From positions 6,983 to 70,982 of the forward strand of contig CAYWTR010000015.1 of NCBI GenBank assembly GCA_964461255.1: DNA of 64,000 bases. Direction: 5' to 3'. Every line of letters starts with the position of its first letter. The first letter of the stretch is position 1. This stretch comes from an uncultured Fibrobacteraceae bacterium. GTDB taxonomy: Bacteria; Krumholzibacteriota; Krumholzibacteriia; LZORAL124-64-63. Shown piece by piece: positions 1 through 18,484 of this stretch. The translations under genes were made by a program, and so were the position numbers. Under the pieces are notes generated by a model. The model searched no databases and was not told the origin of the DNA. It saw only the letters and a list, made by a program, of their open reading frames with translations.

Positions 1-76
1 TCATCCTCTCCATGCCCGCCCTCCGTGGTCTCACACCGCCCAGCGTGCCGACTTCCCAATGGCCGCCGCCCCGCCC

Positions 77-1519
77 TTAGATAACGGCATTGAAAACGTC
101 CTCCGCCAACCGTTCGCGCGGTGATTTGCCGCCAGGGATCACAAGCGCTTTCAGCAGAAGATCGTGCAAACCCATCACCCTGCAGGGAAGCTTGTAGAAC
201 TCAACCAGCTCTTTGAGTTGTTTCTTGCAGTTCGCGCAAGGCGCGATAACGATCTCGGCGCCAGTGCGCTGGATCTGCTCTGCCTTGACCTTGCCCCCGA
301 CCTGCATTCTGAAGTCATGGATTTCATCCACGGACACCAGGCCGCCGCCGCCGCCGCAGCAATAGTTGCGCTCGCCGCCTGGCTCCATATCAACGAAATC
401 GCGGACGAATGCGCGCAGGATCTCGCGCGGTTGCTCGACAATCCAGCCCGAGCGCGCAATGTTGCAGGGATCATGATACGTCACCCGCTGGGAGACAATC
501 GTGGGATCAAGTTGGATCTTGCCTCGCTGCAGGCAATCCAGCGTGTATTCCATGAAATTGATGACGGGATAGGCACGGCGCCCGCCGAATACCGGCACAA
601 ATTGGTGGGCGGCGCGCGAGGCATGACCGCACTCGCCGATTAGGACACCGCGTCCACGCAGACGTGCGACCTCGTCCAATAGTTGCTGAACGATACGCTC
701 AAGGTGCCAATCGCTATAGAATAGCCCATAGTTGATCCCATCATAGTTGCAGGTGCCGATGGTCCAACGTTCCCAGTCCCCCGCCGCATATAGCACGGCG
801 GCGTTGCCCATCAGGGTATCGGGCTCCATCAGGTAATCGCTCACGGCGCAGAAGAAGACATAATCGCGATCCTCGCGATCGACGGGGAAATCCAGCTCGA
901 CTCCAAGCTGCTCCGTCATTTCCTCCGCCAGGAAAGAAAGAGTGTTCAACATCGCCTTCTTGGGGATCTTAGACGTGTTGTGCGTCTCTCCCTCGAGCTG
1001 TTCTCGCACGCTGACCTGCAGGGCTTTGGGCACGATGCCGATGAGACTCAACACGTAACGGCCCAGCCGTGTCATGAGACCGTGGTCAACGCCCAGGGGG
1101 CATTCCAGTGTGCAGCGCCGGCAAGCCGTACAGCGATATAGCACGTCCGCCAGCTCATCCACCAGCTCCTCGGTCAGCTCGAAGCCGCGGCTGAACCGCG
1201 ATGCAAGCCAACCGCCAAGCGTGAAATAGCGTCGATAGATCTCGAGGAGTATGTTTGAGCGATAGCAGGGAATGTCGCGCGGTGACCCGGTTGTCATGTA
1301 GATCGGGCACGTCACGGCGCAGCGGTTACATTTGGCGCTGGTGTTACTATAGGAATCAAGCAAGGCACGGTAATCGGTGAATTCCAGCACGACGGCAAAC
1401 GCTTCCAGAAACCGCTCAACGCGCGGTCTTAGGGGTGCATTCTCCACGTAGTATGGAAACGAGCGACCGATATCAGGAGCGGCGTGCTGAACGGTCGATT
1501 CCATCGTCTTTGCTTCCAT
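77..1519 (-). CDS. Fe-S oxidoreductase, HdrD/GlpC-like (two 4Fe-4S ferredoxin motifs plus CCG-type Cys-rich domains)
   Basis: Two CxxCxxCxxxCP motifs (CNRCAVTCP, CTACRRCTLECP). C-terminal Cys-rich CCG-like segments (HDPCN, NYCCGGGGG, PCANC). Start re-assigned to MEAKTMESTV at 1519, since the longer ORF to 1612 only adds a non-conserved leader. Confidence 0.65.
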   Translation of the reverse strand: MEAKTMESTVQHAAPDIGRSFPYYVENAPLRPRVERFLEAFAVVLEFTDYRALLDSYSNTSAKCNRCAVTCPIYMTTGSPRDIPCYRSNILLEIYRRYFTLGGWLASRFSRGFELTEELVDELADVLYRCTACRRCTLECPLGVDHGLMTRLGRYVLSLIGIVPKALQVSVREQLEGETHNTSKIPKKAMLNTLSFLAEEMTEQLGVELDFPVDREDRDYVFFCAVSDYLMEPDTLMGNAAVLYAAGDWERWTIGTCNYDGINYGLFYSDWHLERIVQQLLDEVARLRGRGVLIGECGHASRAAHQFVPVFGGRRAYPVINFMEYTLDCLQRGKIQLDPTIVSQRVTYHDPCNIARSGWIVEQPREILRAFVRDFVDMEPGGERNYCCGGGGGLVSVDEIHDFRMQVGGKVKAEQIQRTGAEIVIAPCANCKKQLKELVEFYKLPCRVMGLHDLLLKALVIPGGKSPRERLAEDVFNAVI

Positions 1520-1793
1520 GATGTCGACACACCTCCGGGGCCGTTTGCAAGACAAGACGACAATGGCAAGGAGCGTACCCGCCGCCAAGGCAGGGCGAGC
1601 GCGCAGCCCCAACGGCCTCGAAACTGGGTGGCGTAACCGCGGGCTGAATGGCGCATGAGTCGCCAGGTTCGCCGTCTAATCACGGTCGCGGCAAGGAAGA
1701 GGCGCTGTGCCTGGAGAGCCCCGGCGCGGCGCAGGAGATCTTCCGTCAGCAGTCGGGCGCAACGGTTTGAGCGTTGCGTCGGTTGCATCGTCG

Positions 1794-1823
1794 TGTCGCA
1801 TGCGACATCGACTGCGACATCGC
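1794..1823. promoter_or_regulatory. Candidate enhancer/UAS: 14-bp perfect palindrome TGTCGCATGCGACA followed by direct repeats TGCGACATCG(A/C)
   Basis: Perfect palindrome read directly, about 200 bp upstream of the sigma-54 promoter at 2006. A TGT-N8-ACA architecture resembles bEBP upstream activator sites. Confidence 0.3.
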
Positions 1824-2003
1824 GCGACGTATCCGGCTTCTCCTACACCAGCCCTTTGGCGCAGCCGCGGCGGCCCGCCGGCGGCGTCAGGTGATGAAAC
1901 ACGCCCGCGATATCTCCGGCAACAGAGGAATAGTCGGCATCTGCCAGCGGTCTCGGATAAGCATCGAGCGGTGAAGGGGTGGCGGCAGCACGGAGAGGAT
2001 GCC

Positions 2004-2022
2004 CTTGGCACGCCCATTGCGA
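2004..2022 (+). promoter_or_regulatory. sigma-54 (RpoN) promoter, TGGCACG-N4-TTGC
   Basis: cccTTGGCACGcccaTTGCg is an exact match to the -24/-12 consensus with correct GG/GC spacing. It lies about 25 nt upstream of the 2047 start codon, which has a GAGGTG RBS, and a sigma-54 activator gene sits 1.7 kb downstream. Confidence 0.6.
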
Positions 2023-2046
2023 TGAAACGGGCAAAGCGAGGTGCAC

Positions 2047-3081
2047 ATGCGCTACGCGATCCCAGTTCTATCCCGCCGAGTATCGCCTCGCTGCACGATC
2101 GCCGAGACCGTCCTGGTTGTCGAGGCGCGCGCGGGCGAGGTTATCAACAGCCAGCGGCTGAATGCTCCGGGACGCACTTGGATGGAGCTGTTTTCGACCC
2201 TCGCAACCGAGCGCATCGATGTTCTCGTGTGCGGCGGCATATCGCGGGAGGCGAGACAGGCTCTCCGCGCGCGAAACATCACGGTGGTCGACAACGTGGC
2301 GGCCACAATCGACAGCGTGATAGGCGCGATTGCGACGGGAGAACTAAGGCCCGGCTACGGCTTTGATAGCGATGGGCGCGACGGCGGGGATCCGGACATC
2401 GTGCCTGCCGGCGTGTCCTTCCATCGCGATGCTGGCGCTCGTGATCGGGGCGCCGCTGCCGGATCCCGACCTCCGGAGTCGGGAGCGCCGGACTGCCTTG
2501 CCTGCGCCGACAGGGTGTGCCTGCTCGGAGATCCATGCCCATCGTTCGCACGCCGTGGTGGTGCCGGTCCCCATGGCAACACCCGCCGCATCCTGGAAGC
2601 GACCCACGATATCGCCTGCGAGGATGAGCGCGTCTTGTGCCGGCTGTCCGAGCTGATCTACTTCGGCCTGGAAATGGGATACCGCCGCATCGGCGTCGCT
2701 TTTTGCTGGGACCTTCTGGAGGCGACCCGGATTCTGGTTGGGGTCATGCGGCGCTTCTTCGATGTCGTGCCCATTGGCTGCAAGATCAACCGCCCCGCCG
2801 CCCCGGCCCCGGGCCGCAACTTTATGGGAACCGAATCGCCGCTGCCGTCGCGCTACATCCCCTGCAATCCTCGCGGGCAAGCGCTGGCGCTGGCGCGGGC
2901 TGGCAGCGAACTCAATGTCGCCGTCGGTCTGTGCATGGGAGCCGACTGTTTGTTCGCGCAGGCCAGTCGCGCGCCCGTAAGCACGCTGTTCGTCAAAGAT
3001 CGCTCCTTTGCAAAACAACCCCATCGGGGCATTGTACAGCGATCACTACTTAAAGGAAGCGCTGCGAGCGTCCGCGGCTGA
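2047..3081 (+). CDS. NifX/NifB-like Fe-Mo cluster-binding domain (DUF134) fused to a C-terminal Cys-rich domain (DUF1847-like)
   Basis: N-terminus (IAETVLVVEARAGEVIN...LVCGGISREARQALRARNITVV) matches the PF02579-type fold. The C-terminal half carries DCLACADRVCLLGDPC and further conserved Cys residues. The gene is driven by the sigma-54 promoter. ATG at 2047 is preferred over GTG at 2041. Confidence 0.55.
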   Translation: MRYAIPVLSRRVSPRCTIAETVLVVEARAGEVINSQRLNAPGRTWMELFSTLATERIDVLVCGGISREARQALRARNITVVDNVAATIDSVIGAIATGELRPGYGFDSDGRDGGDPDIVPAGVSFHRDAGARDRGAAAGSRPPESGAPDCLACADRVCLLGDPCPSFARRGGAGPHGNTRRILEATHDIACEDERVLCRLSELIYFGLEMGYRRIGVAFCWDLLEATRILVGVMRRFFDVVPIGCKINRPAAPAPGRNFMGTESPLPSRYIPCNPRGQALALARAGSELNVAVGLCMGADCLFAQASRAPVSTLFVKDRSFAKQPHRGIVQRSLLKGSAASVRG

Positions 3082-3150
3082 GCGCGCCTGGCGTCTGACC
3101 AACTGCTCAACGCTCGTGTCCGCGGCATCTTCGCCAAAGGAGGCATTGCC

Positions 3151-3682
3151 ATGACGGTCACTCGCATTAGCGCCGTGGGTTTTTGTGCACACTATTCACC
3201 CGCAGGCGATTTGGCCTTTGACTTCGCGTTGCGCCTTTCGCGCGATCATGGCTTTCAACTCAACGTGTTTCACTTTCTCGTTGATCCCTACGCGCGCACT
3301 GAGGCTCTGACCCGTTTCTACAGCGGCCGCGAATTGGCCGATCTGGCCTATGAGCGCGAACGAGAACTGCGCCTTTACTACGACGAACGCGCGGGAGACT
3401 ATCTTGAGATCGGCTTTCGGCTGTGCTACGACGATAGCTGGCGCGAGCTGCATCGCTGCCTGGCCGGTCCACGAGTTCCAGCTGCTGGTGCTCGCGAAAC
3501 CAGCTGCCGACAGTGTGTTTTGCCGCAAACCGATTGAGATCTTCGCCGATAGCTTCGTCTGCCCGGTGGTGCTGGTCGGGCCCGACGACGCCGGCCATTA
3601 CCGACTCAACAGCAGCGCCTCCTTGCTAGCCGATCAGTTGGATCTGCCGGCGGAACGGTGGCAGCGTATCGAAACCGCCTAG
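3151..3682 (+). pseudogene. Universal stress protein (UspA family) with an apparent +1 frameshift near 3465-3480
   Basis: Frame 1 (3151-3537) gives a Usp N-terminus (ISAVGFCAHYSPAGDLAFDFALRLSRDHGFQLNVFHF). Frame 2 (to 3682) gives the Usp C-terminus (HEFQLLVLAKPAADSVFCRKPIEIFADSFVCPVVLVGP). The junction lies at HRCLAGP / VHEFQ. This is either a genuine frameshift or an indel error. Confidence 0.45.
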
Positions 3683-3813
3683 CGCGCGGGAGGCAGCGAT
3701 TGGGCGCGACCATTTCAGAGCCCCTGAGGACAGATTGTCACGCTGCCGCTCGCGCTGGTTGCGCTATCCGCTCCCCAGCCTATTTTGGGGACAGGAAAGA
3801 GCGGATTGATGCC

Positions 3814-5118
3814 ATGCCCGAGAAGTTGAGTCAGATTATCTTCAACAGCATCAGCGATGGTGTGTTCACGGTCGACCGTGACTGCATCATCACCTCGTTC
3901 AACCACGCCGCGGAACGCATCACCGGCTTCAGCGCTGCCGAGGCTGTCGGCAAGCACTGCTTCGATGTGTTCCGCACCGACATCTGCCACAAGCAGTGTG
4001 CACTGAAGGACACGCTGCACACGGCCGCTCCCGTCGAGAACACGCGCGTCACGATTATAACCCGCGATGAACGCGAGGTGCCGATCCGTGTTACAACTAC
4101 GCTGCTGCGAGACGACAACGGCCAGGTTATCGGCGCGGTGGAATTCTTCCGAGACATTTCCGAACTCGAGCACCTGCGGGAAAGCCTCGATCGCAAGCGC
4201 GGTCTGGAAGACATTGTCAGTGTCAACCGGCAGATGCAGCAGCTTATCGCACTGCTGCCTGACATCGCCGAATCCGAATGCAACGTGCTGCTGGAAGGAC
4301 CCAGTGGCTGCGGCAAGGAGCTGGTGGCGCAGACCATCCACAATTTGAGCCCCAGACGCTATGGCCCCTACATAAGGATCAACTGCGCCGCACTGCCGGC
4401 ACCCCTGCTCGAATCCGAGCTTTTCGGCTACGAAAAGGGGGCCTTTACGGACGCCAAGCGCAACAAACCGGGCCAGTTCAGCCTTGCCAATGGCGGCACG
4501 CTGCTGCTCGACGAGATCGCCGAGATGGCTGTCTCTCTGCAGGTCAAGCTTCTGCGCGTTCTGAACAACGGCGAGTATCAGCCCTTGGGCTCGGCGAAAT
4601 CCATGCGCACCGATGCGCGCATCGTCGCGGCCACCAACGCCGATCTCCAGCAGGAGGTCAGCGCCGGCCGGTTCCGCGAGGATCTCTACTATCGCATCAA
4701 CGTCGTCAACCTCAAGATCCCGCCTCTTGACCAACGCCCCGAGGACATTCCGCTGCTGGTCAACCACTTTCTCGGCCTCTTCCGCGCGCCCCGCGCCAAG
4801 AACATCACTCAGGTATCAAGTGAGGCGATGGCGGCCCTGCGGCGGTACCGCTATCCAGGTAATATTCGGGAACTGGAAAACGCCATCGAGCATGCCTTCG
4901 TTATGTGCCATGGCGAGCGCATCGAGCTGGAGCATTTGCCGGCGCATCTTGTTTCCCTGGCCGAGACGGTGAACGGCATCACGGCTCATCCGCAATGCGA
5001 GCGCGATGTCATCCTGGAAGCGCTGCAAAGGCATAAAGGCAATCGCGCCGCCACAGCCGCGGAGCTGGGCATCCACCGCAGCACTCTTTGGCGCAAGATC
5101 AGGTCGCTGAAGGTCTGA
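3814..5118 (+). CDS. sigma-54-dependent transcriptional activator (PAS sensor, AAA+ sigma-54 interaction domain, Fis-type HTH)
   Basis: Walker A GPSGCGKE, sigma-54 activator box ESELFGYEKGAFTDA (GAFTDA variant of GAFTGA), GGTLLLDEI, C-terminal HTH AAELGIHRSTLWRKI. The N-terminal PAS carries a C-x8-C-x3-C cysteine motif. An RBS (aggaaagag) precedes the ATG at 3814. Confidence 0.85.
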   Translation: MPEKLSQIIFNSISDGVFTVDRDCIITSFNHAAERITGFSAAEAVGKHCFDVFRTDICHKQCALKDTLHTAAPVENTRVTIITRDEREVPIRVTTTLLRDDNGQVIGAVEFFRDISELEHLRESLDRKRGLEDIVSVNRQMQQLIALLPDIAESECNVLLEGPSGCGKELVAQTIHNLSPRRYGPYIRINCAALPAPLLESELFGYEKGAFTDAKRNKPGQFSLANGGTLLLDEIAEMAVSLQVKLLRVLNNGEYQPLGSAKSMRTDARIVAATNADLQQEVSAGRFREDLYYRINVVNLKIPPLDQRPEDIPLLVNHFLGLFRAPRAKNITQVSSEAMAALRRYRYPGNIRELENAIEHAFVMCHGERIELEHLPAHLVSLAETVNGITAHPQCERDVILEALQRHKGNRAATAAELGIHRSTLWRKIRSLKV

Positions 5119-5149: not shown

Positions 5150-6523
5150 CTACTCCGCCAAGAGCGCGGCCACTTCCATGCCGCCACTCGCATCGCAGCC
5201 CAGATCGAGCGTCGGCGCGTCCGCCCCGCGCAGTGCGCGGCCGTCGGCGTGGTGCGTCACGCGCACCAGCGGGCGCTCGATGTCTGCGCCGGCGGCGATC
5301 ACCAGGGCCTGCTCGCCGGTAGACATGCGGACGCTGCTGCCCGGGGGATACAGGCCCAGGGCGCGCACGAAGGCCGCCAGCAGATCGGGCGCGAAGGCGC
5401 CCTCGTCGGCGAGCATGATCTCGTACGCGCGGCGCGGAGCCAGCGCGCGCTTGTAGGGCCGGACGGCGGTGAGCGCCTCGTACACATCGCAGATGTGGAG
5501 CAGCGCCGTCAAGCGGCCGGGCGCGGCCCAGGTCGGACGGGCGGGATACCCGCCGCCGTCGTGCCGCCAGTGATGGCCCAGCGCGGCGGCGACGGCGGGC
5601 ATCCCGGCGGCGCGGTTCTGGAGCAAGAGGCGCGCGCCCAGCGCGGCGTGCTCCTCGATCGCGCGCCGCTGCTCGGCATTCAGCCCGTCCGGTTTGTACA
5701 GGATCTCCTCCGGGATGCACGCCTTGCCGACGTCGTGCAGCAGGCCGGCCTCGCCCAGATGGTGAAGCTGCGGCGGCGGCAGCCCCCAGCGATGGCCGAC
5801 CAGCACGGCGATCGTCGCCACGCGCACGGAGTGGCCGATCAGGTAGCTGTCGTGGTCGGGATAACGGACGAGCCGCATCAGGTCGAGACAGCCGCCGTCC
5901 TCGACCCGAGACAGCTTCTCGCTCAGCGACCTCACCGCCTCAACGTCCAGCTGGTCGCCGGCGGCGGCCTGTCCGTGGACGGCTTCGACGGTGTGGAACA
6001 ACGACTGGTACAGCTGGATCACGGCCTCCAGATGGCGGGCGCTGTCTTCGTCCTCCCGCGACGCCGCGCCGGAGGCGGCGCTCGGGCAGATGGAGTCGGC
6101 CTCAGCGCAAACCACCGCCAGCTCGATGAGGCGTACGCCGCGGGCCCGCAGCAGGCGGCGCGCTTCCTCTAGGTCGCTGGCCGGCTCGGCGAGCTCGGCC
6201 GACAGTGAGTACAGCTCGGACAGTTCCCGCGGCTCGGCGCCGTGGTGGAAGAGGAAACCGCCGCAACGCAGCTGTTCGGCGAGGGCCACGACCTTGCCGC
6301 CGGCGATCGTCGAACCGATCAGATAGTTCCCATCGTGAACCAGCTTACCGTCGACCACCCCCAGCAGGAAAGACTCCTTGCCCGCCTCGCGCAGCACGCC
6401 GTCCAGCTGGGCGGCGAAGCGTTCGCACAGCGCCGCGACCTTGGGATGATCGCGGAAGTACATCTTGCGCTGGCCGAGGCCGCTGCTCAGCAGGATCACC
6501 AGCTGGTCGTAGCGCGCGTTCAT
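5150..6523 (-). CDS. HD-GYP domain protein (putative c-di-GMP phosphodiesterase) with N-terminal sensory region
   Basis: HD motif (LLHDVGK) and HHWRHDGGGYP signature. The start overlaps the upstream ORF stop (ATGA). Confidence 0.8.
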   Translation of the reverse strand: MNARYDQLVILLSSGLGQRKMYFRDHPKVAALCERFAAQLDGVLREAGKESFLLGVVDGKLVHDGNYLIGSTIAGGKVVALAEQLRCGGFLFHHGAEPRELSELYSLSAELAEPASDLEEARRLLRARGVRLIELAVVCAEADSICPSAASGAASREDEDSARHLEAVIQLYQSLFHTVEAVHGQAAAGDQLDVEAVRSLSEKLSRVEDGGCLDLMRLVRYPDHDSYLIGHSVRVATIAVLVGHRWGLPPPQLHHLGEAGLLHDVGKACIPEEILYKPDGLNAEQRRAIEEHAALGARLLLQNRAAGMPAVAAALGHHWRHDGGGYPARPTWAAPGRLTALLHICDVYEALTAVRPYKRALAPRRAYEIMLADEGAFAPDLLAAFVRALGLYPPGSSVRMSTGEQALVIAAGADIERPLVRVTHHADGRALRGADAPTLDLGCDASGGMEVAALLAE

Positions 6524-8547
6524 GACGCGTCACCTCGCTGTCCGGCGCCTCCCTCGAGGGCGGGCGACGGGGCGGGGTGTTGCAGCCGAAGCAGCGCCTC
6601 GCCCGCCGCCAGCCGGCAGCGCGCCGGCCAGGCCGGCCAGACCAGCAGCCGCCGCCCGCTCTGGATTGCGCGCAGCACGTGGACGGCGGCGCCCCCGCCC
6701 AGCAGGCCCAGCGCCGCAATCGCGTCGGCCGCAGCCGCCTCGCCCCGGCGCGACGGCGGCAGCATGCTCAACGCCTCCGACAGCAACCGACCCCACAGCG
6801 CGCGCGTTTCGGCGGAGGGAGCCGCGGCGCCGGCATCTCCCAACACGCGGGCCAGCAACGGACGGTGGCGCGGCTGGTAATCGCCCAACAAGGCCAGCGT
6901 GCGTCCGGGCAGCCAGACCGGCGGCCGCTGGCGCAGGCCTTCCCAGAGCGCGGCGCCGATCGCCAACCCCTGCGCGGACCACAGCAGGAGCGCGCAGAGA
7001 GGCGCCAGGCCGGGAGGCGGCGCGTGCAGCCAGCGCAGGGAGAGCTTGCCTTCCCGCAGCGACGCCAGTCCCTCCAGCCGCGGCAGGGCGCGGCGCATGG
7101 CGTCTTCGTCTAGGGACGCGGCCGCCTGGTGCAGCGCCTCGCGCACCGCCGGCTCTTCGTGTTCGAGGCCCGCGAGGATCTCGTTGACGATGTGCGGCCA
7201 CAGCGCGGCCAGCGCCTCGCCCGCCAGGCCGCGGGCCGCGTCGCGCAACAGGCTGCCGGGCGCAGACGGGCTTCCGGCGCGCAGGGCCCCGCACACGGCG
7301 TCCAGCAGGGGGTCCAGCAGAGCGAGCGGAACGCGCGCGGCCAGATCGCCCAACGCGGTCGCCAGCAGCGCGTGCTCGGCCGGTTGCAGCGGGGGGGCGA
7401 CGTTTTCCCGCAACCTGTTCAAGACCTCGGCCGACAGCGCGGGCGGCGGCGCGGCGGTCGCGATCTGCAGCAGAACGGCGAGGGTTTCGCGGCGGTCGGC
7501 CGGCGCGGGCGCGCCGCTGTCCCCTTCCGCCGCCTCGTCCAACCGCCGGTTCAGCTCATCCACGGTCCACTCGCAGGCTTCTGCTTCGCGCGTGTGCTTG
7601 ATCGGCGGCGCGGCATGCCGGCTTCCCCGCGCCTGCCTGGCCGCCTGGCGGAAGGCGTCGAGCATCAACGCGACCATGTCGCCGTCGCCAGGCTGAACCA
7701 GAGCCAGCTGCGCCTGCGCCAAGGCCCCCGCCAGATCGGCCGCGGTCGCCGTCGCCGGCACGGTCTGCAGGAGCGCGTGGCGGAGAGCCTGGGCGGCGAG
7801 CGCGAAGACGTCGTCGAACGAGCGGACGCCGGCGGCTTGTCCCCCTTGCTGCTGGGCGGACCCCTGCTCCATCTGCCCGGCCAGCTTCGCCGTCAGCGTC
7901 TCAAGCAGCTGCTCGCAGGCCGCCCGTGCGCCAGCGTCGAGATCGTCCCGCTCGAGCGCGCCCAACGCCGCGTCGGCCGCCGCCCTGATCCTTGCGCCGA
8001 GGAAGGCGACATCGCCCCCGGCCAGCGCCAGCTTGAATTCCCGCCGTGTGGTCCTGATCGCCGGGCCCAGGTCGTCGAGCTGGATACGGTGAAATCCCTG
8101 GACGGTGTCCGCCTCGAGCTTGTGGCGTTGCATCGTGGTCACGAACCGATGCAGATCCTCGGGTGTGACGCCGGCGTCGAACTCCAGGCGGGCGACGCCG
8201 AGGCGATCGAGCAACTCGTGCAGGCGCACCGCGCCGCGTTGCGATGAATCGAGCCGTTGTCCGCCGATGACCAGGAAGCCGCGGCCGACGTCGATCCCGA
8301 GCGTCGTTCCACCGTCCAGGGCCTGCTGCAGCTCGCGCGTGAACGCGGCGGCGACCTCGGCGACCAGCGTATGCCCGGCGGGATAGTAGGTGGCGATGGT
8401 GAACAGGCGGTCGAGTGCGCCGAGGAGTCCGGCATGCTGCCGTGGTGGGCTGCGGGGTGGAACCGTGGCAACGTTCATGACGGCGCCCTGGCCTTCGCGG
8501 AGCACGGATCGGGCTCGCGTCCGGCGATCTTGATCGATCGTTTGCAA
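6520..8547 (-). CDS. Hypothetical Ala/Leu-rich protein, translationally coupled to the HD-GYP gene
   Basis: Long ORF on the same strand whose stop overlaps the HD-GYP start. No recognisable motif. Start is uncertain: TTG at 8547 or ATG (MNVATV) at about 8478. Confidence 0.45.
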   Translation of the reverse strand: MQTIDQDRRTRARSVLREGQGAVMNVATVPPRSPPRQHAGLLGALDRLFTIATYYPAGHTLVAEVAAAFTRELQQALDGGTTLGIDVGRGFLVIGGQRLDSSQRGAVRLHELLDRLGVARLEFDAGVTPEDLHRFVTTMQRHKLEADTVQGFHRIQLDDLGPAIRTTRREFKLALAGGDVAFLGARIRAAADAALGALERDDLDAGARAACEQLLETLTAKLAGQMEQGSAQQQGGQAAGVRSFDDVFALAAQALRHALLQTVPATATAADLAGALAQAQLALVQPGDGDMVALMLDAFRQAARQARGSRHAAPPIKHTREAEACEWTVDELNRRLDEAAEGDSGAPAPADRRETLAVLLQIATAAPPPALSAEVLNRLRENVAPPLQPAEHALLATALGDLAARVPLALLDPLLDAVCGALRAGSPSAPGSLLRDAARGLAGEALAALWPHIVNEILAGLEHEEPAVREALHQAAASLDEDAMRRALPRLEGLASLREGKLSLRWLHAPPPGLAPLCALLLWSAQGLAIGAALWEGLRQRPPVWLPGRTLALLGDYQPRHRPLLARVLGDAGAAAPSAETRALWGRLLSEALSMLPPSRRGEAAAADAIAALGLLGGGAAVHVLRAIQSGRRLLVWPAWPARCRLAAGEALLRLQHPAPSPALEGGAGQRGDAS

Positions 8548-13263: not shown

Positions 13264-13602
13264 CTAGTGGTCGCAGACGTTCTCGCCCTGGCGCAGCGTG
13301 CCCGCCAGGTAATCGGCCACAAGCCGCTCGGGCGCTTCGGCCGGGGCGCCCACCATGACCTCGATGCCCTGCGCCGCGAAGAGCTCGCGCGCTCGCTGCC
13401 CCATCCCGCCGGCGATGATCACGCTCGCCCCCTGCTGCGCCAGCCAGGGCGGCAACAGACCAGGCTGATGCGGCGGGGCGGGAATGTCCTCGCGCGCGAG
13501 CACGCGCTGCGCGGCGGGATCGACATCGAGCAGGGCGAAGCTGGCGCAGTGGCCGAAATGCAAGGCCAGCTTGCCGTCGGCGAGCGGGATGGCGATGCGC
13601 AT
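13264..13602 (-). CDS. NifX/NifB-like Fe-Mo cluster-binding family protein (DUF134)
   Basis: MRIAIPLADGKLALHFGHCASFALLD ... VIIAGGMGQRARELFAAQGIEVMVG. RBS caaggagaacggacagATG. Confidence 0.75.
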   Translation of the reverse strand: MRIAIPLADGKLALHFGHCASFALLDVDPAAQRVLAREDIPAPPHQPGLLPPWLAQQGASVIIAGGMGQRARELFAAQGIEVMVGAPAEAPERLVADYLAGTLRQGENVCDH

Positions 13603-13659
13603 CTGTCCGTTCTCCTTGATTGATGTGATCCTGCGGCCGCCGCGGCGGCCGGACGCGGG

Positions 13660-14559
13660 TCACGCCGCCGCCGCGCCGTCCACCAGGGACAACACGCGAC
13701 GCCAGACCCGGCGAATGTCCTCCGCGGAGGGGGTCTCGATCTCGACGACGGCGCGCGCCGCCAGTTGCGCGCGGGTCACACCCGCGTCGTAACGGATTCG
13801 CCCGACCGGCACCGCGCCCGCCGCCAGCGCCCGCGCCTCGATGCGCTCACTCAAGGCGGGCGAAAGATCCCACTTGTTGACGCAGACCGCCGCGGGCAGC
13901 CCGAAATGGCGCGCCAGCGACAGCACGCGCGCCAGGTCGTGATCGCCGGCAACCGTCGGCTCGGTCACGACCACCACCAGCGAGGCGCCCGTGACCGAGG
14001 CGATGACCGGGCAGCCGATTCCCGGCGGCCCGTCCACGAGCACGAGCCCGCGCTGCTGCGCCTCCGCCAACCGCCGCGCCTCCCGCCGCACAGTCGACAC
14101 CAGTTTGCCCGAGTTCTCGGCGGCGATCCCAAGGCGCGCGTGCACCATGGGACCGCTGCGCGTGTCGGAGACCATCCATTCCCCGCAAAGGCGCTCGGGG
14201 AAATCGATGGCCTGCGCCGGGCAGAGCCGCACGCAGAGACCACAGCCCTCGCAGGCGATGGGATCGACGGCGAAGATGGGCGCGCCCTGCTCGCCGGCCG
14301 CGACGCGCATGGCGTCGAATCGGCAGTGCGCCAGGCAGTCGCCACAGCCGGTGCAATCAGCCGGTCGGATGATCGCCTCGCGGCCGCTGTGGAAAGGCCG
14401 GCGCGCGCGCAGGTGCGGCTCCAGCACCAGATGCAGGTCGGCCGCGTCGACGTCGCAGTCGGCGACGACCGCATCCCCGCTGAGAATGGCGAACGAAGCG
14501 GTCAGGCTGGTCTTGCCCGTGCCGCCCTTGCCGCTGATGACCACGATCTCGCGCATCAC
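13660..14559 (-). CDS. MinD/ParA-superfamily P-loop ATPase with inserted 2x[4Fe-4S] ferredoxin domain (COG1149-type)
   Basis: Walker A GKGGTGKTS. Two Cys clusters, CTGCGDCLAHC and CEGCGLCVRLCP, inserted into the ATPase fold. Confidence 0.8.
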   Translation of the reverse strand: MMREIVVISGKGGTGKTSLTASFAILSGDAVVADCDVDAADLHLVLEPHLRARRPFHSGREAIIRPADCTGCGDCLAHCRFDAMRVAAGEQGAPIFAVDPIACEGCGLCVRLCPAQAIDFPERLCGEWMVSDTRSGPMVHARLGIAAENSGKLVSTVRREARRLAEAQQRGLVLVDGPPGIGCPVIASVTGASLVVVVTEPTVAGDHDLARVLSLARHFGLPAAVCVNKWDLSPALSERIEARALAAGAVPVGRIRYDAGVTRAQLAARAVVEIETPSAEDIRRVWRRVLSLVDGAAAA

Positions 14560-15395
14560 GCCTCCCGCGGCGTCATGACAAGCTCGCCCAGGCGCGCAAA
14601 CAGCGGCCGGTAGGCCGGCAGCGCGTCGATCAGCAACGCTCCCTCCGCGTACGCCTCGGCGATGCGCCGGTCATCGGGAATCTCGAGCAGGATCGGTATC
14701 CCCTGCTGCGCGCACCATTCCTGGACACGCCGGTCGCCGGCGCCGGCCCGGTTGATCACCACGCCGTGCGGCAGTTCCAGCTCGCGCGCCAGCGCCGCCG
14801 CCAGGGTCAGGTCGTGCAAGCCGAAGGGCGTCGGCTCGGTCACCAGCAGCAAGTAGTCCGCGCCGCGCACCGCCGCGATCACCGGGCACGATGTCCCCGG
14901 CGGCGCGTCGATCAACGCCGGCAGATCATCTCGCCCTCGCTGTCTCACAGCTCTGATCAGCGGCGGAGCCGCGGGCACCCCGACGTCGAGCCTTCCCTGG
15001 ATCAGCGTGATCGGTCCCGCCGTCAGGGTCTCCACGACACCGATGCGCCGGCCCGTTTCGCTGATGGCGCGTTGAGGACAGACCAGGGCGCAGCCGCCGC
15101 AGCCGTGGCAGAGCTCGGCGAAGACAAGCGGCTCCGTCCCGAACGAGACGATGGCGTGGTACTGGCAGAAGCGGCTGCACTCGCCGCAGCCGTCGCAGCG
15201 AGCCGCATCGACCACCGGGACGGGCAGCGTCACCTCGACGCTGTCGCGGCATGTTCCCGCCAGGAACAGGTGCGCGTTGGGCGCCTCGACATCGCAATCC
15301 AGCAGCTGCACCGGTTCTCCCAGAGCCTTGGCCAGGTTCACCGCGACCGTGGTCTTGCCGGTGCCGCCCTTGCCCGAAGCCACGGCGACGATCAT
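14556..15395 (-). CDS. MinD/ParA-superfamily P-loop ATPase with inserted 2x[4Fe-4S] ferredoxin domain (second copy)
   Basis: Walker A GKGGTGKTT. Cys clusters CDGCGECSRFC and CHGCGGCALVCP. Start at MIVAVASGKGG (15395) overlaps the upstream stop (ATGA). The stop overlaps the downstream paralog start. Confidence 0.8.
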   Translation of the reverse strand: MIVAVASGKGGTGKTTVAVNLAKALGEPVQLLDCDVEAPNAHLFLAGTCRDSVEVTLPVPVVDAARCDGCGECSRFCQYHAIVSFGTEPLVFAELCHGCGGCALVCPQRAISETGRRIGVVETLTAGPITLIQGRLDVGVPAAPPLIRAVRQRGRDDLPALIDAPPGTSCPVIAAVRGADYLLLVTEPTPFGLHDLTLAAALARELELPHGVVINRAGAGDRRVQEWCAQQGIPILLEIPDDRRIAEAYAEGALLIDALPAYRPLFARLGELVMTPREA

Positions 15396-15754
15396 GCCCA
15401 GTGGCCTTCCACGTCCGCGTCGCTCGCCGGCGCCAGCTCCCCGGCGCGGAAGCGCTCCACGGCCGCCGCCACGGTCGGCGCTTCCGTGTTGTGGATGGAG
15501 ATGCCAGCGGCCTGCAGCACCCGAAACGCCTTCGGCCCGCAATGCCCCGTCACCAGCGCCCTTGCCCCGCTGCGCGCGATGGTCTCGGCCGCCTGCACCC
15601 CCGCGCCTGAGGCGGCCGCCAGGTTCTGCGCGTTGTCGATCACCTGGAATTCATCGGCGTCCAGATCGTAGACGATGAAGCATGCCGCCCGGCCGAAACG
15701 GGGATCCAGCGGCGCGTCCAGCGCCCCGGCCGTCGCTGTCAGCGCGATCTTCAC
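15392..15754 (-). CDS. NifX/NifB-like Fe-Mo cluster-binding family protein (DUF134)
   Basis: VKIALTATAGALDAPLDPRFGRAACFIVYD ... LVTGHCGPKAFRVLQAAGISI ... ERFRAGEL. GTG start preceded by GGAAGGAG with 6-nt spacing. Confidence 0.75.
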   Translation of the reverse strand: MKIALTATAGALDAPLDPRFGRAACFIVYDLDADEFQVIDNAQNLAAASGAGVQAAETIARSGARALVTGHCGPKAFRVLQAAGISIHNTEAPTVAAAVERFRAGELAPASDADVEGHWA

Positions 15755-15851
15755 TCTGCGCTCCTTCCGTAGCGCCGGCGCCGGGCGGCGGTCTCGCCGC
15801 ATCGCCCCCGACGCGGACCGCCCGCCGCGGCGCCGGCCTGCCCAGACGTAC

Positions 15852-16217
15852 TCACGCGCCCGTGTTGTCCGACGCGAGCTCCTGCAGCCGTTTCTCGACC
15901 GCCGCCAGTTGCGCTTTCAGGTCTCCGGCCAGCTGGCGCAGACCCTGCAGCTCCCGGCCGGCATCAAGCGGCGCCCACGGCGCGGGCGCGAAGCCCGCCC
16001 CCGTGGGCAGCCAGCCCGGCTGCCCGGTCGCCCAGGCCCGGTTGCGCCAACCGCGCCCCGCGCCGAAGCCCGGACCGTCGCCCCAGGCGCCGCGCGCGAA
16101 GCGGCGGCCCGGCCAGCCGCTCGCGTACCCGGGCCAGGCGCCGCCGCCGCAGTACCCGGCGCCGCGCCCTGTCATCGGTCCCTGACCCCAGGGTCCCGTC
16201 CTGTCTCCTCCCGGCAT
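15852..16217 (-). CDS. DUF5320-like small protein: Gly/Trp/Pro-rich N-terminal repeats plus C-terminal coiled coil
   Basis: MPGGDRTGPWGQGPMTGRGAGYCGGGAWPGY ... then LQGLRQLAGDLKAQLAAVEKRLQELA. AAGGAGG RBS, 7 nt before the ATG at 16217. Confidence 0.55.
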   Translation of the reverse strand: MPGGDRTGPWGQGPMTGRGAGYCGGGAWPGYASGWPGRRFARGAWGDGPGFGAGRGWRNRAWATGQPGWLPTGAGFAPAPWAPLDAGRELQGLRQLAGDLKAQLAAVEKRLQELASDNTGA

Positions 16218-16262
16218 GGTCATGCCTCCTTTCACATCGCGCCTCTCCACCGCCGCGCAGCA

Positions 16263-16913
16263 TCAGCCATCCCGGCGCATGGCGATCCCGCACTGCGGGC
16301 AGCGCTGCTGCGCGCAGGGGACGCCCCGCGCATGCGGCTCCCGGCGCCCGCACTGCGGGCAGACACAGCTGCCGCCGGGACCGCCCGCCTGCGGCCCTCC
16401 CATGCGACCGCGGCCGCCGCCTCCCGCGCCGCCGCCACGTCCTCCTCCGGCACCGCCGCCTCTTGCGCCGCCGCCACGTCCTCCGCCGGCACCGCCGCCG
16501 CCACCGCCGCCGCCGCCGCCACCACGTCCCATGCCTCTCATCGCCCTGTTCCTTCCCAGGCCGCGCCCGCGTCCGGCGCCGCAGCATCCCGGCATCGCGA
16601 AGCGCTCGCCTTCCAGGCGCGCTTCCAGCCACGCCCGCACGATCTCCTCCATCTCCCCGGCCACGAACGGAATCACCTTGATGCCGTAAGACTCGATCAG
16701 CTCCTGCAGGGGCCGCGAGATCGCGCCGCACACCAGCACCTGCGCGCCGCGCTCGGCCAGCCTGAGGGCCCTGGCGGCCGGCGGTTCGAGCGGCAGCATC
16801 TCGTCCGCCGTGCCGACGATGCGCCCCCCCTCCGCTTCCACCACCCGCATCCGTCGCGCGACGTCGAAGACCGGCGCCAACCTGTCGTTCCAGATCGCGA
16901 AAGCCGCCTTCAT
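16263..16913 (-). CDS. DUF134-like domain fused to a Gly/Arg-rich low-complexity region and a C-terminal CxxC...CxxC zinc ribbon
   Basis: N-terminal about 105 aa NifX-like (AFAIWNDRLAPVFDVARRMRVVEAEG...QVLVCGAISRPLQELIESYGIKVIP). Then GGGRGGGA x4. Then CVCPQCGRREPHARGVPCAQQRCPQCG. Confidence 0.65.
   Translation of the reverse strand: MKAAFAIWNDRLAPVFDVARRMRVVEAEGGRIVGTADEMLPLEPPAARALRLAERGAQVLVCGAISRPLQELIESYGIKVIPFVAGEMEEIVRAWLEARLEGERFAMPGCCGAGRGRGLGRNRAMRGMGRGGGGGGGGGGGAGGGRGGGARGGGAGGGRGGGAGGGGRGRMGGPQAGGPGGSCVCPQCGRREPHARGVPCAQQRCPQCGIAMRRDG
16373..16586. repeat. Imperfect about 39-bp tandem repeats (GC-only codons) encoding the GGGRGGGA low-complexity tract
   Basis: ccgccgccacgtcctcc(t/g)ccggcaccgccgcc... 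is repeated 2.5 times within the coding sequence. Confidence 0.6.
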
Positions 16914-16960
16914 GCGGGCGCTCCTCTCTGCGGGCTGGGGGAAAGATCCAGCATGGATCG

Positions 16961-16999
16961 CGCCGCCGGCACCGCGGTTCGTTCATTGACACAACGTGT
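16961..16999. promoter_or_regulatory. AT-rich island with consensus TTGACA and TATAAT hexamers and an ACAC-N3-GTGT inverted repeat. It lies upstream of the minus-strand NifX-like/ATPase cluster, just downstream of the sigma-54 activator gene
   Basis: ttgacacaacgtgtttatttataattgattatgatgaca sits in an otherwise about 70% GC context. The hexamer spacing is only 13 nt, so this may be a DNA-bending or binding site rather than a promoter. Confidence 0.3.
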
Positions 17000-17098
17000 T
17001 TATTTATAATTGATTATGATGACAGCCGGCGCAGGCCGGCCGGATTTACAGTCGCGTTATTGCTACGATATGTGTTCCAAAGGGTCGCGGATATGAGA

Positions 17099-18484
<1,386 letters not shown>

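What the first reader, a model, noticed from the sequence alone, without database searches (positions are those of the whole stretch)
3814..5118. Paralogous PAS sigma-54 activators with a conserved Cys motif in PAS, and a GAFTDA variant in one copy
Both activators (3814-5118 and 17099-18484) share the PAS sequence ISDGVFTV...ITG...A(V/L)G..C..VFR....C...CAL. Three or four conserved cysteines suggest a metal, Fe-S or redox sensor. The 3814 copy has GAFTDA instead of the near-invariant GAFTGA sigma-54 contact loop, which may alter or weaken sigma-54 engagement.
Basis: partly seen in the sequence, partly recalled or inferred. Interest (0 to 1): 0.55.

Follow-up and report, generated by a model that had tools for sequence, protein, structure and literature searches.

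The report
Two OrpR-type iron-sulfur redox regulators
Both genes are sigma-54 activators of the known OrpR type, which senses redox state with an iron-sulfur cluster in its PAS domain, and the "odd" GAFTDA loop is a conserved, working variant that OrpR itself carries.

Summary
Both proteins are PAS + AAA+ + HTH sigma-54 activators, 50% identical. Both carry C-x8-C-x3-C with D/E two residues after the first Cys. [quoted passage not shown]

The Cys interpretation is therefore right but already known. The GAFTDA interpretation is not supported:
- GAFTDA is invariant in all 120 closest homologues (69-100% identity).
- The exact protein is read on 13 contigs.
- 48 of 150 related cluster representatives have GAFTDA.
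- OrpR itself has GAFTDA and activates sigma-54 promoters, even in E. coli.
- The same substitution in E. coli NorR (G266D) stays active.

The two genes belong to separate, old subfamilies:
- Copy 2 (GAFTGA, three Cys) sits directly upstream of an orp-like gene cluster.
- Copy 1 (GAFTDA, Walker A GPSGxGKE, a fourth invariant Cys, C24) sits beside two divergent sigma-54 promoters. A dense half-site array lies between them. The promoters face a DUF1847 operon and an Hmc/Tmc-like redox-complex operon. This layout is conserved in three other genomes.

Verdict: new members of a known kind, modest interest.

The parts
3814..5118 (+). Copy 1: 434-aa OrpR-type activator (PAS, AAA+, HTH_8) of the GAFTDA subfamily
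   Evidence: ORF and translation; Pfam domains; 120 homologues at 69-100% identity, lengths mostly 434-437 aa, which supports the ATG at 3814.
3883..3999 (+). Copy 1 PAS cysteine set: C24 (3883-3885), C49 (3958-3960), D51, C58 (3985-3987), C62 (3997-3999). Predicted [4Fe-4S] ligands.
   Evidence: All four Cys are invariant in 120/120 homologues and D51 is 95% D. The C-x8-C-x3-C spacing with D/E at C+2 equals OrpR C52/C61/C65/D-E54. In the AF2 model C24 is the residue just before strand B (25-29), C49 starts helix 49-53, and C58 and C62 lie in a non-regular segment (54-62) ahead of helix 63-70, where confidence falls (residues 51-60 average pLDDT 62).
4297..4320 (+). Copy 1 Walker A variant GPSGCGKE
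   Evidence: Sequence. The clade has GPSG[S/C/A]GKE in 118/120. The G-x2-G-x-G-K core is retained.
4438..4455 (+). Copy 1 L1 loop GAFTDA (D213)
   Evidence: 120/120 homologues. Same loop as DVU2106/OrpR.
2006..2021 (+). Sigma-54 promoter TGGCACGCCCATTGCG, about 26 nt upstream of the ATG of the DUF1847 gene
   Evidence: Best -24/-12 match in the whole 64-kb window. An equivalent site sits at the same place in L004 and L005, and a near match in L006.
1565..1580 (-). Divergent sigma-54 promoter GGGTACGCTCCTTGCC, about 46 nt upstream of the DsrK/HmcF-like gene
   Evidence: Equivalent sites in L004 (TGGCATGCCACTTGCA), L005 (TGGTACGCCTCTTGCC) and L006 (CGGCATACTCTTTGCA).
1758..1828 (.). Candidate enhancer (UAS): 7 GT[CT]GC[AG] half-sites in about 70 bp, including the perfect palindrome TGTCGCATGCGACA (1794-1807)
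   Evidence: It is the densest 80-bp window in the 64 kb (7 sites; mean 0.28 per 80 bp; next best 3). The same holds for the homologous intergenic region of L004, L005 and L006 (7-9 sites; next best 2-3).
2047..3081 (+). Nitro_FeMo-Co + DUF1847 protein (344 aa), first gene behind the 2006 promoter
   Evidence: Pfam. Weak NCBIfam match of its N-terminus to the C-terminal domain of MrpORP/Orp9. Synteny in L001, L004, L005 and L006.
3151..3682 (+). USP-like gene between the DUF1847 gene and copy 1, frameshifted in this genome
   Evidence: tblastn of the 178-190-aa orthologues splits into two frames at about 3466-3472.
77..1519 (-). DsrK/HmcF/TmcB-like CCG iron-sulfur protein, first gene of the divergent Hmc/Tmc-like operon, which continues beyond the window edge
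   Evidence: Pfam CCG + Fer4_8. NCBIfam DsrK 279 bits, below the cut-off. The rest of the operon (TmcC/HmcE-like, Fer4_11, NrfD with faint cytochrome c hits) is seen in L001 and L004-L006.
17099..18484 (-). Copy 2: 461-aa OrpR-type activator of the GAFTGA subfamily. C58 (18311-18313), E60, C67 (18284-18286), C71 (18272-18274); GAFTGA at 17816-17833.
   Evidence: 119 homologues with an invariant Cys triad and GAFTGA.
17047..17067 (-). Conserved element CGTAGCAATAACGCGACTGTA just after the copy 2 stop codon. Candidate enhancer for the orp-like operon.
   Evidence: Aligned with the equivalent regions of L005 and L087.
16950..16965 (-). Weak -24/-12 element CGGCGCGATCCATGCT, about 37 nt upstream of the first orp-like gene. 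An A+T-rich block (about 16990-17020) lies between it and the conserved element.
   Evidence: Clearer sites at the same place in L005 (GGGTACGCCGCTTGCG) and L087 (TGGCATGGAGAATGCA).
13264..16913 (-). orp-like cluster downstream of copy 2: Nitro_FeMo-Co (16263-16913), DUF5320 (15852-16223), Nitro_FeMo-Co (15392-15754), two MinD/ParA-type ATPases with 4Fe-4S ferredoxin inserts (14556-about 15390; 13660-14559), Nitro_FeMo-Co (13264-13659)
   Evidence: Pfam. The last gene matches the C-terminal domain of MrpORP at 1.8e-37. Composition matches the published ORP proteins Orp3/4 (two-ferredoxin-motif proteins) and Orp9 (PMC6345978). The same gene set follows the copy 2 orthologues in L005 and L087.

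Best explanation
Both genes encode OrpR-family enhancer-binding proteins. Each has one N-terminal PAS domain, predicted to hold a redox-sensitive [4Fe-4S] cluster on the C-x8-C-x3-C triad. The fourth ligand would be C24 in copy 1 and possibly E60 in copy 2. By analogy with OrpR, the PAS domain gates an AAA+ ATPase that remodels sigma-54 RNA polymerase: the protein activates under reducing conditions and switches off when the redox potential rises.

The two are not a normal copy and a damaged copy. They belong to two old, separately conserved subfamilies with separate targets:
- Copy 2 (GAFTGA) activates the orp-like metallo-cluster operon directly downstream of it.
- Copy 1 (GAFTDA) binds the GT[CT]GC[AG] half-site array at 1758-1828 and drives two divergent sigma-54 promoters. 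One (2006-2021) reads into the DUF1847 / USP-like / copy 1 operon, so copy 1 would autoregulate. The other (1565-1580) reads into an Hmc/Tmc-like transmembrane electron-transfer complex.

GAFTDA is a functional, selected form of the sigma-54 contact loop, not a defect.

Shown here: sequence features, their conservation, synteny, promoters and the half-site array. Inferred: Fe-S binding, direction of the redox response, DNA binding, and which promoters each protein drives.
For: Domain architecture.

Cys triad identical in spacing to the experimentally defined OrpR ligands: against PMC8359166. The triad is invariant in 120 and 119 homologues.

GAFTDA:
- It is the native OrpR loop (PMC4641369).
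- OrpR is required for orp transcription and works with E. coli sigma-54.
- NorR G266D and G266N are active. Of the other 17 residues tried at G266, only Q, S, C and M gave partial activity; the rest, including E, were non-functional. The natural non-Gly residues in this family are D (48), N (6) and E (1).

Copy 1 keeps the Walker A lysine, Walker B DE, the asparagine of INCAAL, ATN, FREDLYYR and GNIRELEN, and most of these positions are invariant in A1.

Copy 1 targets: the best sigma-54 promoter in the window is next to copy 1. The divergent promoter pair and the half-site array are conserved in L004, L005 and L006. The Hmc/Tmc-like | DUF1847 - USP-like - bEBP synteny is conserved in the same three genomes.

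Copy 2 targets: the orp-like genes lie beside copy 2 here and beside its orthologues in L005 and L087. Upstream elements are conserved.

In L005 the two subfamilies sit in tandem, each with its own loop variant.
Against: No biochemistry exists for either protein. Fe-S binding is inferred from a motif shared with one characterised homologue.

The D. vulgaris OrpR sequence could not be retrieved here. Comparison rests on published residue numbers and loop sequence, not on an alignment.

The published OrpR binding palindrome is absent from the window (3 matches at 3 mismatches against 2.2 expected), so DNA specificity differs.

The -24/-12 element upstream of the orp-like cluster in this window is weak.

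The half-site motif was defined after looking at the four loci, so its enrichment statistic is partly circular.

NorR G266D has lower, less cooperative ATPase and gives weaker open-complex footprints in vitro, so a quantitative effect of D213 cannot be excluded.

No rpoN gene lies in the window.
Confidence: 0.75

Rival explanations
1. One reading: D213 weakens or abolishes the sigma-54 contact. Copy 1 would then be a poor activator, a DNA-bound repressor, or a poison subunit that forms mixed rings with copy 2.
For: The second glycine of GAFTGA is sensitive. In NorR most substitutions at G266 are non-functional, and G266D/N have reduced, less cooperative ATPase and weaker open-complex footprints in vitro. 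VfmH of Dickeya, which has GAFTDA, did not pull down sigma-54 (PMC10714721).
Against: GAFTDA is invariant in 120/120 homologues down to 69% identity, and all catalytic AAA+ residues are kept. OrpR has GAFTDA and is an obligatory sigma-54 activator, also in E. coli. NorR G266D is fully active in vivo. Strong -24/-12 promoters and an enhancer-like array sit next to the gene in four genomes, which a non-activator would not need. L004 and L006 show no second OrpR-type gene within 8 kb of the copy 1 orthologue; the rest of those genomes was not searched.
Confidence: 0.08
2. The conserved cysteines do not hold an Fe-S cluster. They bind a structural or regulatory Zn ion, or act as a thiol-disulfide switch.
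For: Four invariant Cys in copy 1 (C24, C49, C58, C62) would suit a Zn(Cys)4 site. There is no spectroscopy on these proteins and no solved structure of this PAS type. The AF2 model is uncertain over residues 54-62.
Against: The same triad in OrpR gives UV-visible and EPR signatures of a [4Fe-4S]2+ cluster that converts to [3Fe-4S]1+, and a Cys-to-Ser triple mutant loses redox control. The genomic context is saturated with Fe-S and metallo-cluster proteins.
Confidence: 0.1
3. GAFTDA does not change sigma-54 contact but changes how the sensor domain controls the ATPase. As in NorR G266D, an Asp at this position would prevent direct masking of the L1 loop by the N-terminal domain. GAFTDA-type proteins would then have to be regulated at the level of oligomerisation or ATP hydrolysis, while GAFTGA-type relatives could use loop masking.
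For: NorR G266D and G266N fully escape repression by the GAF domain, and the escape is suppressed by GAF-domain changes. D/N and G states are each strictly fixed within subfamilies yet alternate across the family tree. This fits co-evolution with the sensor domain.
Against: OrpR (GAFTDA) is still negatively controlled by its PAS domain, since deleting PAS makes it constitutive. An Asp in the loop therefore does not in itself prevent repression by the sensor. There is no evidence on the repression mechanism in any PAS-type member.
Confidence: 0.2
4. The D codon is an assembly or sequencing error, or copy 1 is a decaying pseudogene in a laterally acquired block.
For: Copy 1 lies in a low-GC3 block, and the gene just upstream of it carries a frameshift.
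Against: The identical 434-aa protein is read on 13 contigs; the three loci fetched came from three sequencing runs and all translate to it. The ORF is intact and full length. Every homologue has the same Asp.
Confidence: 0.01

Closest known systems
OrpR (DVU2106) of Desulfovibrio (Nitratidesulfovibrio) vulgaris Hildenborough: Fe-S PAS sigma-54 activator of the orp operons (Fievet 2011, 2014, 2021)
   Same: PAS + AAA+ + HTH architecture. C-x8-C-x3-C triad with D/E at C+2. GAFTDA loop (copy 1). Neighbouring orp-type genes: Nitro_FeMo-Co/ORP-like proteins and MinD/ParA ATPases with ferredoxin motifs (copy 2). Sigma-54 promoters with an upstream enhancer, and in copy 2's case an A+T-rich block between them. 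A divergent promoter pair (copy 1).
   Different: Copy 2 has GAFTGA. Copy 1 has a fourth invariant Cys (C24), a GPSGxGKE Walker A, and different target genes (DUF1847 operon and an Hmc/Tmc-like complex). The OrpR palindrome GGGCGYRTTTTGCGCCC is absent; copy 1's candidate site is an array of GT[CT]GC[AG] half-sites. Copy 1 appears to lie inside a sigma-54 operon, whereas orpR is transcribed from a sigma-70 promoter. The hosts are uncultivated bacteria: named homologues of copy 1 come from Krumholzibacteriia and Zixibacteria MAGs.
E. coli NorR variants G266D and G266N (engineered GAFTDA / GAFTNA)
   Same: The same residue change in the same loop of a sigma-54 activator. Shows that Asp or Asn at loop position 5 is compatible with sigma-54 contact and open-complex formation.
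   Different: NorR senses NO with a non-haem iron GAF domain, and the change is a laboratory mutation that abolishes regulation. Here the Asp is native and fixed, and in OrpR regulation by the PAS domain is retained.
Other Fe-S or iron-based redox and oxygen sensors (NreB PAS [4Fe-4S]; FNR; AdhR GAF-PAS Fe2+ bEBP of Clostridium beijerinckii)
   Same: A labile iron centre in a sensor domain reports redox or oxygen status to a transcriptional output. AdhR is also a sigma-54 activator.
   Different: Different Cys patterns and output domains (own knowledge for NreB and FNR). No sequence relationship was tested here beyond the general PAS fold.

Membership tests
Bacterial enhancer-binding proteins (sigma-54 activators, PF00158) | Sigma54_activat AAA+ domain with Walker A, Walker B, arginine fingers and sensor II | tested here: met
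   PF00158 at E 1e-65 (copy 1) and 1.3e-68 (copy 2). GxxGxGKE, DE, FREDLYYR and GN[IV]RELEN are present in both. K168, D233, E234, R288, R294 and R352 are invariant in A1.
Bacterial enhancer-binding proteins (sigma-54 activators, PF00158) | GAFTGA sigma-54 contact loop | tested here: met
   Copy 2 has GAFTGA. Copy 1 has GAFTDA, a variant documented as functional in OrpR and in NorR G266D. F and T, the residues most critical for contact (own knowledge), are intact.
Bacterial enhancer-binding proteins (sigma-54 activators, PF00158) | C-terminal Fis-type HTH and a nearby -24/-12 promoter with an upstream enhancer | tested here: met
   HTH_8 in both. For copy 1: top-scoring -24/-12 site at 2006-2021, a divergent site at 1565-1580 and a half-site array, all conserved in three other genomes. 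For copy 2: a weak site here and clear sites in L005 and L087.
Bacterial enhancer-binding proteins (sigma-54 activators, PF00158) | ATP-dependent activation of sigma-54 RNA polymerase | not testable with these tools
   Needs a reporter or in vitro open-complex assay.
OrpR-type Fe-S PAS activators | Single N-terminal PAS with three conserved Cys spaced C-x8-C-x3-C and D/E two residues after the first Cys | tested here: met
   Copy 1: C49, D51, C58, C62. Copy 2: C58, E60, C67, C71. OrpR: C52, D/E54, C61, C65. The Cys are invariant in homologues.
OrpR-type Fe-S PAS activators | [quoted passage not shown] | not testable with these tools
   Needs anaerobic purification and UV-visible or EPR spectroscopy. 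No solved structure of this PAS type exists.
OrpR-type Fe-S PAS activators | Encoded next to orp genes (ORP/Nitro_FeMo-Co proteins, Orp3/4-type ATPases with ferredoxin motifs, MrpORP) | tested here: met
   Met for copy 2 (also L005 and L087). For copy 1 only partly: the neighbouring DUF1847 protein carries an N-terminal Nitro_FeMo-Co domain, and the rest of the neighbourhood is an Hmc/Tmc-like complex.
OrpR-type Fe-S PAS activators | Binds the palindrome GGGCGYRTTTTGCGCCC | tested here: not met
   Only 3 matches at 3 mismatches in 64 kb against 2.2 expected, and none is in a promoter region of either gene. DNA specificity differs, as is usual between orthologues in distant phyla.
OrpR-type Fe-S PAS activators | Sequence orthology to DVU2106 in a phylogeny | not tested
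   The DVU2106 sequence could not be obtained. The genome scan was saturated by generic activator motifs, the paper's supplements are not held and Fievet 2011 is not held. No NCBIfam equivalog model reaches its cut-off.

The most novel reading that the evidence does not exclude
The copy 1 subfamily (GAFTDA, GPSGxGKE, four invariant PAS cysteines) is a distinct all-Cys-ligated Fe-S redox sensor with a different midpoint potential from the three-Cys, GAFTGA, orp-linked subfamily. The cell would then read two redox thresholds with two related sensors. One would switch a Hmc/Tmc-like membrane electron-transfer complex and the other the ORP metallo-cluster machinery. The fixed G/D difference in the L1 loop would reflect two different ways in which the PAS domain restrains the ATPase.
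Probability: 0.2. Interest if true: 0.5.

Novelty: new member of a known kind. Interest (0 to 1): 0.25.

Why it matters
The finding itself is largely explained by published work on OrpR, so it is not a discovery. The follow-up adds three things.

1. OrpR-type Fe-S PAS activators are widespread well beyond sulfate reducers. 97 of the 150 nearest cluster representatives carry the Cys triad.
2. Asp or Asn at position 5 of the "invariant" GAFTGA loop is a common natural state. It should not be read as loss of function when annotating genomes.
3. A well-conserved sister subfamily is predicted to put an Hmc/Tmc-like respiratory complex and a DUF1847 protein under redox-dependent sigma-54 control in uncultivated Zixibacteria/Krumholzibacteria-like bacteria. 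That gives a testable handle on two poorly understood gene sets: DUF1847 and this Hmc-like complex.

Tried and rejected
- Plus-strand translation of 17099-18484 gives nonsense. The gene is on the minus strand.
- Searching the window for the published OrpR palindrome gave no more than chance.
It returned only 35-51% relatives, so it named neither the source organism nor D. vulgaris OrpR.
- The supplements of Fievet 2021 and the text of Fievet 2011 are not held, so no direct alignment with DVU2106 was possible. I looked for a representative with Cys at 52/61/65 as a stand-in, but none could be tied to D. vulgaris.
- NCBIfam has no model specific to this family. All matches are sub-threshold hits to other activators.
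- No paper in the library mentions DUF1847.
- No rpoN gene lies in the window.
- A sequencing error or pseudogene explanation for GAFTDA was considered and rejected.
- The AF2 model gives secondary structure and confidence only, not coordinates, so Cys-Cys distances could not be measured.
Full report
**1. The observation**

Window 3814-5118 (+) is an intact ORF of 434 residues. The second gene occupies 17099-18484, but on the minus strand. The plus-strand translation is an Arg/Ala-rich artefact, and the minus-strand ORF contains a 461-residue protein starting at the ATG at 18484, behind a GGAGGAGG ribosome-binding site. Homologues of copy 1 are mostly 434-437 aa and those of copy 2 mostly 459-465 aa, which supports both start codons.

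Both proteins match PAS, Sigma54_activat, AAA_lid_14 and HTH_8. They are 50% identical end to end (E 1e-147).

- Copy 1 reads ...AVGKHCFDVFRTDICHKQCAL... with C49, D51, C58 and C62, plus C24 in DRDCIIT. Its loop is GAFTDA at 209-214 (nt 4438-4455).
- Copy 2 reads ...ALGRLCSEVFRCSMCEAECAL... with C58, E60, C64, C67 and C71. Its loop is GAFTGA.
- Copy 1 also has an unusual Walker A, GPSGCGKE.

**2. Conservation**

The 120 best homologues of copy 1 (69-100% identity) are metagenomic. The named ones are Krumholzibacteriia, Zixibacteria and GN15 MAGs. All have GAFTDA and C-x8-C-x3-C, and 118 have GPSG[S/C/A]GKE. In an alignment, C24, C49, C58 and C62 are each 120/120 and D51 is 95% D.

The exact copy 1 protein is read on 13 contigs. 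The three loci fetched came from three sequencing runs and all translate to it, so the Asp codon is not a read error.

The 119 best homologues of copy 2 (72-81% identity; named ones include Syntrophaceae and Acidobacteria MAGs) all have GAFTGA. 113 have GETGTGKE. C58, C67 and C71 are invariant, position 60 is E or D, and Trp is invariant where copy 1 has C24. The extra C64 is kept in only 12%.

These are therefore two separately conserved subfamilies: one with four PAS cysteines and GAFTDA, the other with three and GAFTGA.

**3. What is already known**

D. vulgaris Hildenborough OrpR (DVU2106) is a PAS-AAA+-HTH sigma-54 activator.

- C52, C61 and C65 are fully conserved among its homologues, and a D/E at 54 lies close by.
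- Changing the three Cys, or deleting PAS, makes expression constitutive.

The spacing C-x8-C-x3-C with D/E at C+2 is exactly what both window proteins have.

**4. GAFTDA**

Table 1 of the D. vulgaris sigma-54 regulome paper lists the loop of DVU2106 as GAFTDA, with targets DVU2105-2103 and DVU2107-2109. It groups GAFTDA with variants expected to retain activity (PMC4641369).

OrpR activates the orp1 and orp2 sigma-54 promoters even in E. coli (PMC3897727).

In E. coli NorR, random and saturation mutagenesis gave these results (PMC2941729):
- G266D and G266N (GAFTDA, GAFTNA) are fully active in vivo.
- Both form ATP-dependent open complexes in vitro, although with lower, less cooperative ATPase.
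- Both escape repression by the sensor domain.
- Most other residues at this position are non-functional.

Among the 150 nearest 50%-identity cluster representatives of copy 1, 97 carry the Cys triad. The loop is GAFTGA in 63, GAFTDA in 48, GAFTNA in 6 and GAFTEA in 1. The dominant natural non-Gly states, Asp and Asn, are the two that were fully active in NorR. The single GAFTEA is an exception, since Glu was non-functional there.

A rough neighbour-joining tree shows D and G states interleaved. Copy 1 sits in a GAFTDA/GPSG group and copy 2 in a mostly GAFTGA group. Copy 1 keeps every catalytic AAA+ residue.

The idea that the loop weakens sigma-54 engagement in a way that matters is not supported. 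A quantitative effect, or an effect on sensor-ATPase coupling, cannot be excluded.

**5. Genomic context and likely targets**

Copy 2 is followed on the same strand by these genes:
- Nitro_FeMo-Co (16263-16913)
- DUF5320 (15852-16223)
- Nitro_FeMo-Co (15392-15754)
- two MinD/ParA-type ATPases with 4Fe-4S ferredoxin motifs
- a further Nitro_FeMo-Co protein that matches the C-terminal domain of MrpORP/Orp9 at 1.8e-37

This is the make-up of the ORP complex genes (PMC6345978). The same set follows copy 2 orthologues in L005 and in a Syntrophaceae genome, L087.

Between copy 2 and the first orp-like gene lie three elements: a conserved 21-nt element (17047-17067), an A+T-rich block, and a -24/-12-like element (16950-16965). 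The last is weak here but clear in L005 (GGGTACGCCGCTTGCG) and L087 (TGGCATGGAGAATGCA).

Copy 1 is the last gene of a three-gene row: DUF1847/Nitro_FeMo-Co protein (2047-3081), USP-like gene (3151-3682), copy 1. A DsrK/HmcF/TmcB-like CCG protein (77-1519) runs divergently from this row. Outside the window it is followed by a TmcC/HmcE-like membrane anchor, a Fer4_11 protein, and an NrfD protein of about 650-666 aa that also gives faint multihaem cytochrome c hits. This arrangement is conserved in L004, L005 and L006, whose activators are 70-78% identical to copy 1.

The best sigma-54 promoter match in the whole window, TGGCACGCCCATTGCG (2006-2021), lies 26 nt upstream of the DUF1847 gene. A divergent GGGTACGCTCCTTGCC (1565-1580) lies upstream of the CCG gene. 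Equivalent pairs exist in L004 and L005, and one clear site plus a near match in L006.

Midway between them is an array of GT[CT]GC[AG] half-sites that includes the perfect palindrome TGTCGCATGCGACA.
- Here there are 7 sites in 80 bp against a mean of 0.28 and a next-best window of 3.
- The homologous regions of the other three loci have 7-9 sites against a next best of 2-3.
- The motif was defined after inspecting these loci, so the statistic is partly circular. Its recurrence at the same position in four diverged intergenic regions is still good evidence of an enhancer.

In L005 the copy 1-type and copy 2-type genes are adjacent, followed by the orp-like genes. The pairing of the two subfamilies is therefore old. 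In the window they are 12 kb apart.

**6. Mechanism proposed**

Each protein holds a [4Fe-4S] cluster in its PAS domain (inferred). Under reducing conditions the AAA+ ring assembles on its enhancer and remodels sigma-54 holoenzyme. Oxidation of the cluster lets the PAS domain shut the activator off, as shown for OrpR.

- Copy 2 would drive the orp-like operon.
- Copy 1 would drive two divergent operons, one of which includes itself, and so link redox state to an Hmc/Tmc-like electron-transfer complex.
- The invariant C24 of copy 1 is the residue just before PAS strand B in the AF2 model. C49 starts the short helix 49-53. C58 and C62 lie in a non-regular segment ahead of helix 63-70, where confidence falls (residues 51-60 average pLDDT 62).
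- C24 is a plausible fourth ligand. In copy 2 the fourth ligand may be E60, as proposed for D/E54 of OrpR.

No solved structure of this PAS type exists; the best PDB hits are FixL-type PAS domains at E about 0.006.

**7. Comparison and membership**

Both proteins meet every sequence-testable criterion for sigma-54 activators and for the OrpR-type Cys motif. Copy 2 meets the orp-neighbourhood criterion, and copy 1 shares OrpR's loop.

The OrpR DNA palindrome is absent. Orthology to DVU2106 could not be tested because the sequence was not obtainable. NCBIfam has no equivalog model for the family.

I file both as members of the OrpR-like Fe-S PAS activator family, in two distinct subfamilies.

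**8. Other points**

The block 1-5118 has GC3 of 0.70-0.77 against 0.82-0.93 for the neighbouring genes. L005 shows no such contrast. In this genome the copy 1 module may therefore be a lateral acquisition, and "paralogous" should be read loosely.

The USP-like gene upstream of copy 1 carries a one-base frameshift.

**9. Verdict**

The Cys interpretation is correct but already known. The GAFTDA interpretation is not supported. The additional value lies in defining a conserved GAFTDA/four-Cys subfamily and its predicted regulon. Interest 0.25; new member of a known kind.

Noticed in passing
window 3151-3682 (+): The USP-like gene of about 178 aa, conserved between the DUF1847 gene and the GAFTDA activator in L004, L005 and L006, is split into two frames here by what looks like one extra C (GGTCCACGAG, about 3466-3470). 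The same split gene calls appear in assemblies from three sequencing runs.
   Followed up: partly
window 1-5118: This block (CCG gene, DUF1847 gene, copy 1) has GC 58-65% and GC3 0.70-0.77. The following genes have GC about 70-74% and GC3 0.82-0.93. That suggests lateral acquisition of the whole module. The equivalent module in L005 shows no such contrast.
   Followed up: partly
window 77-1519 (-), continuing in L001 1-3706: Hmc/Tmc/Dsr-like transmembrane redox complex: a DsrK/HmcF/TmcB-like CCG protein, a TmcC/HmcE-like membrane anchor, a Fer4_11 protein, and an NrfD protein of about 650-666 aa that also gives faint multihaem cytochrome c hits. All NCBIfam scores are below the equivalog cut-offs, so it is an uncharacterised relative.
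   Followed up: partly
window 2047-3081 (+): Fusion of an N-terminal Nitro_FeMo-Co (ORP-like) domain with DUF1847. No paper in the searchable library mentions DUF1847. In L004-L006 the precomputed Pfam list for the orthologue shows only DUF1847.
   Followed up: no
window 15852-16223 (-): A Gly/Pro/Trp-rich DUF5320 protein (E 2.3e-23) lies inside the orp-like cluster. A DUF5320 gene occupies the same place in the Syntrophaceae locus L087.
   Followed up: no
window 5150-6523 (-) and 6520-8547 (-): An HD-GYP-type (HD_5) protein and a 675-aa protein with no Pfam match lie directly after copy 1, in the 12 kb that separate the two activators here. In L005 the two activators are adjacent.
   Followed up: no
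L004 9443-11960: In L004 the copy 1 orthologue is followed by a histidine kinase and a response-regulator-type sigma-54 activator, so a second sigma-54 system sits next to the module in that genome.
   Followed up: no
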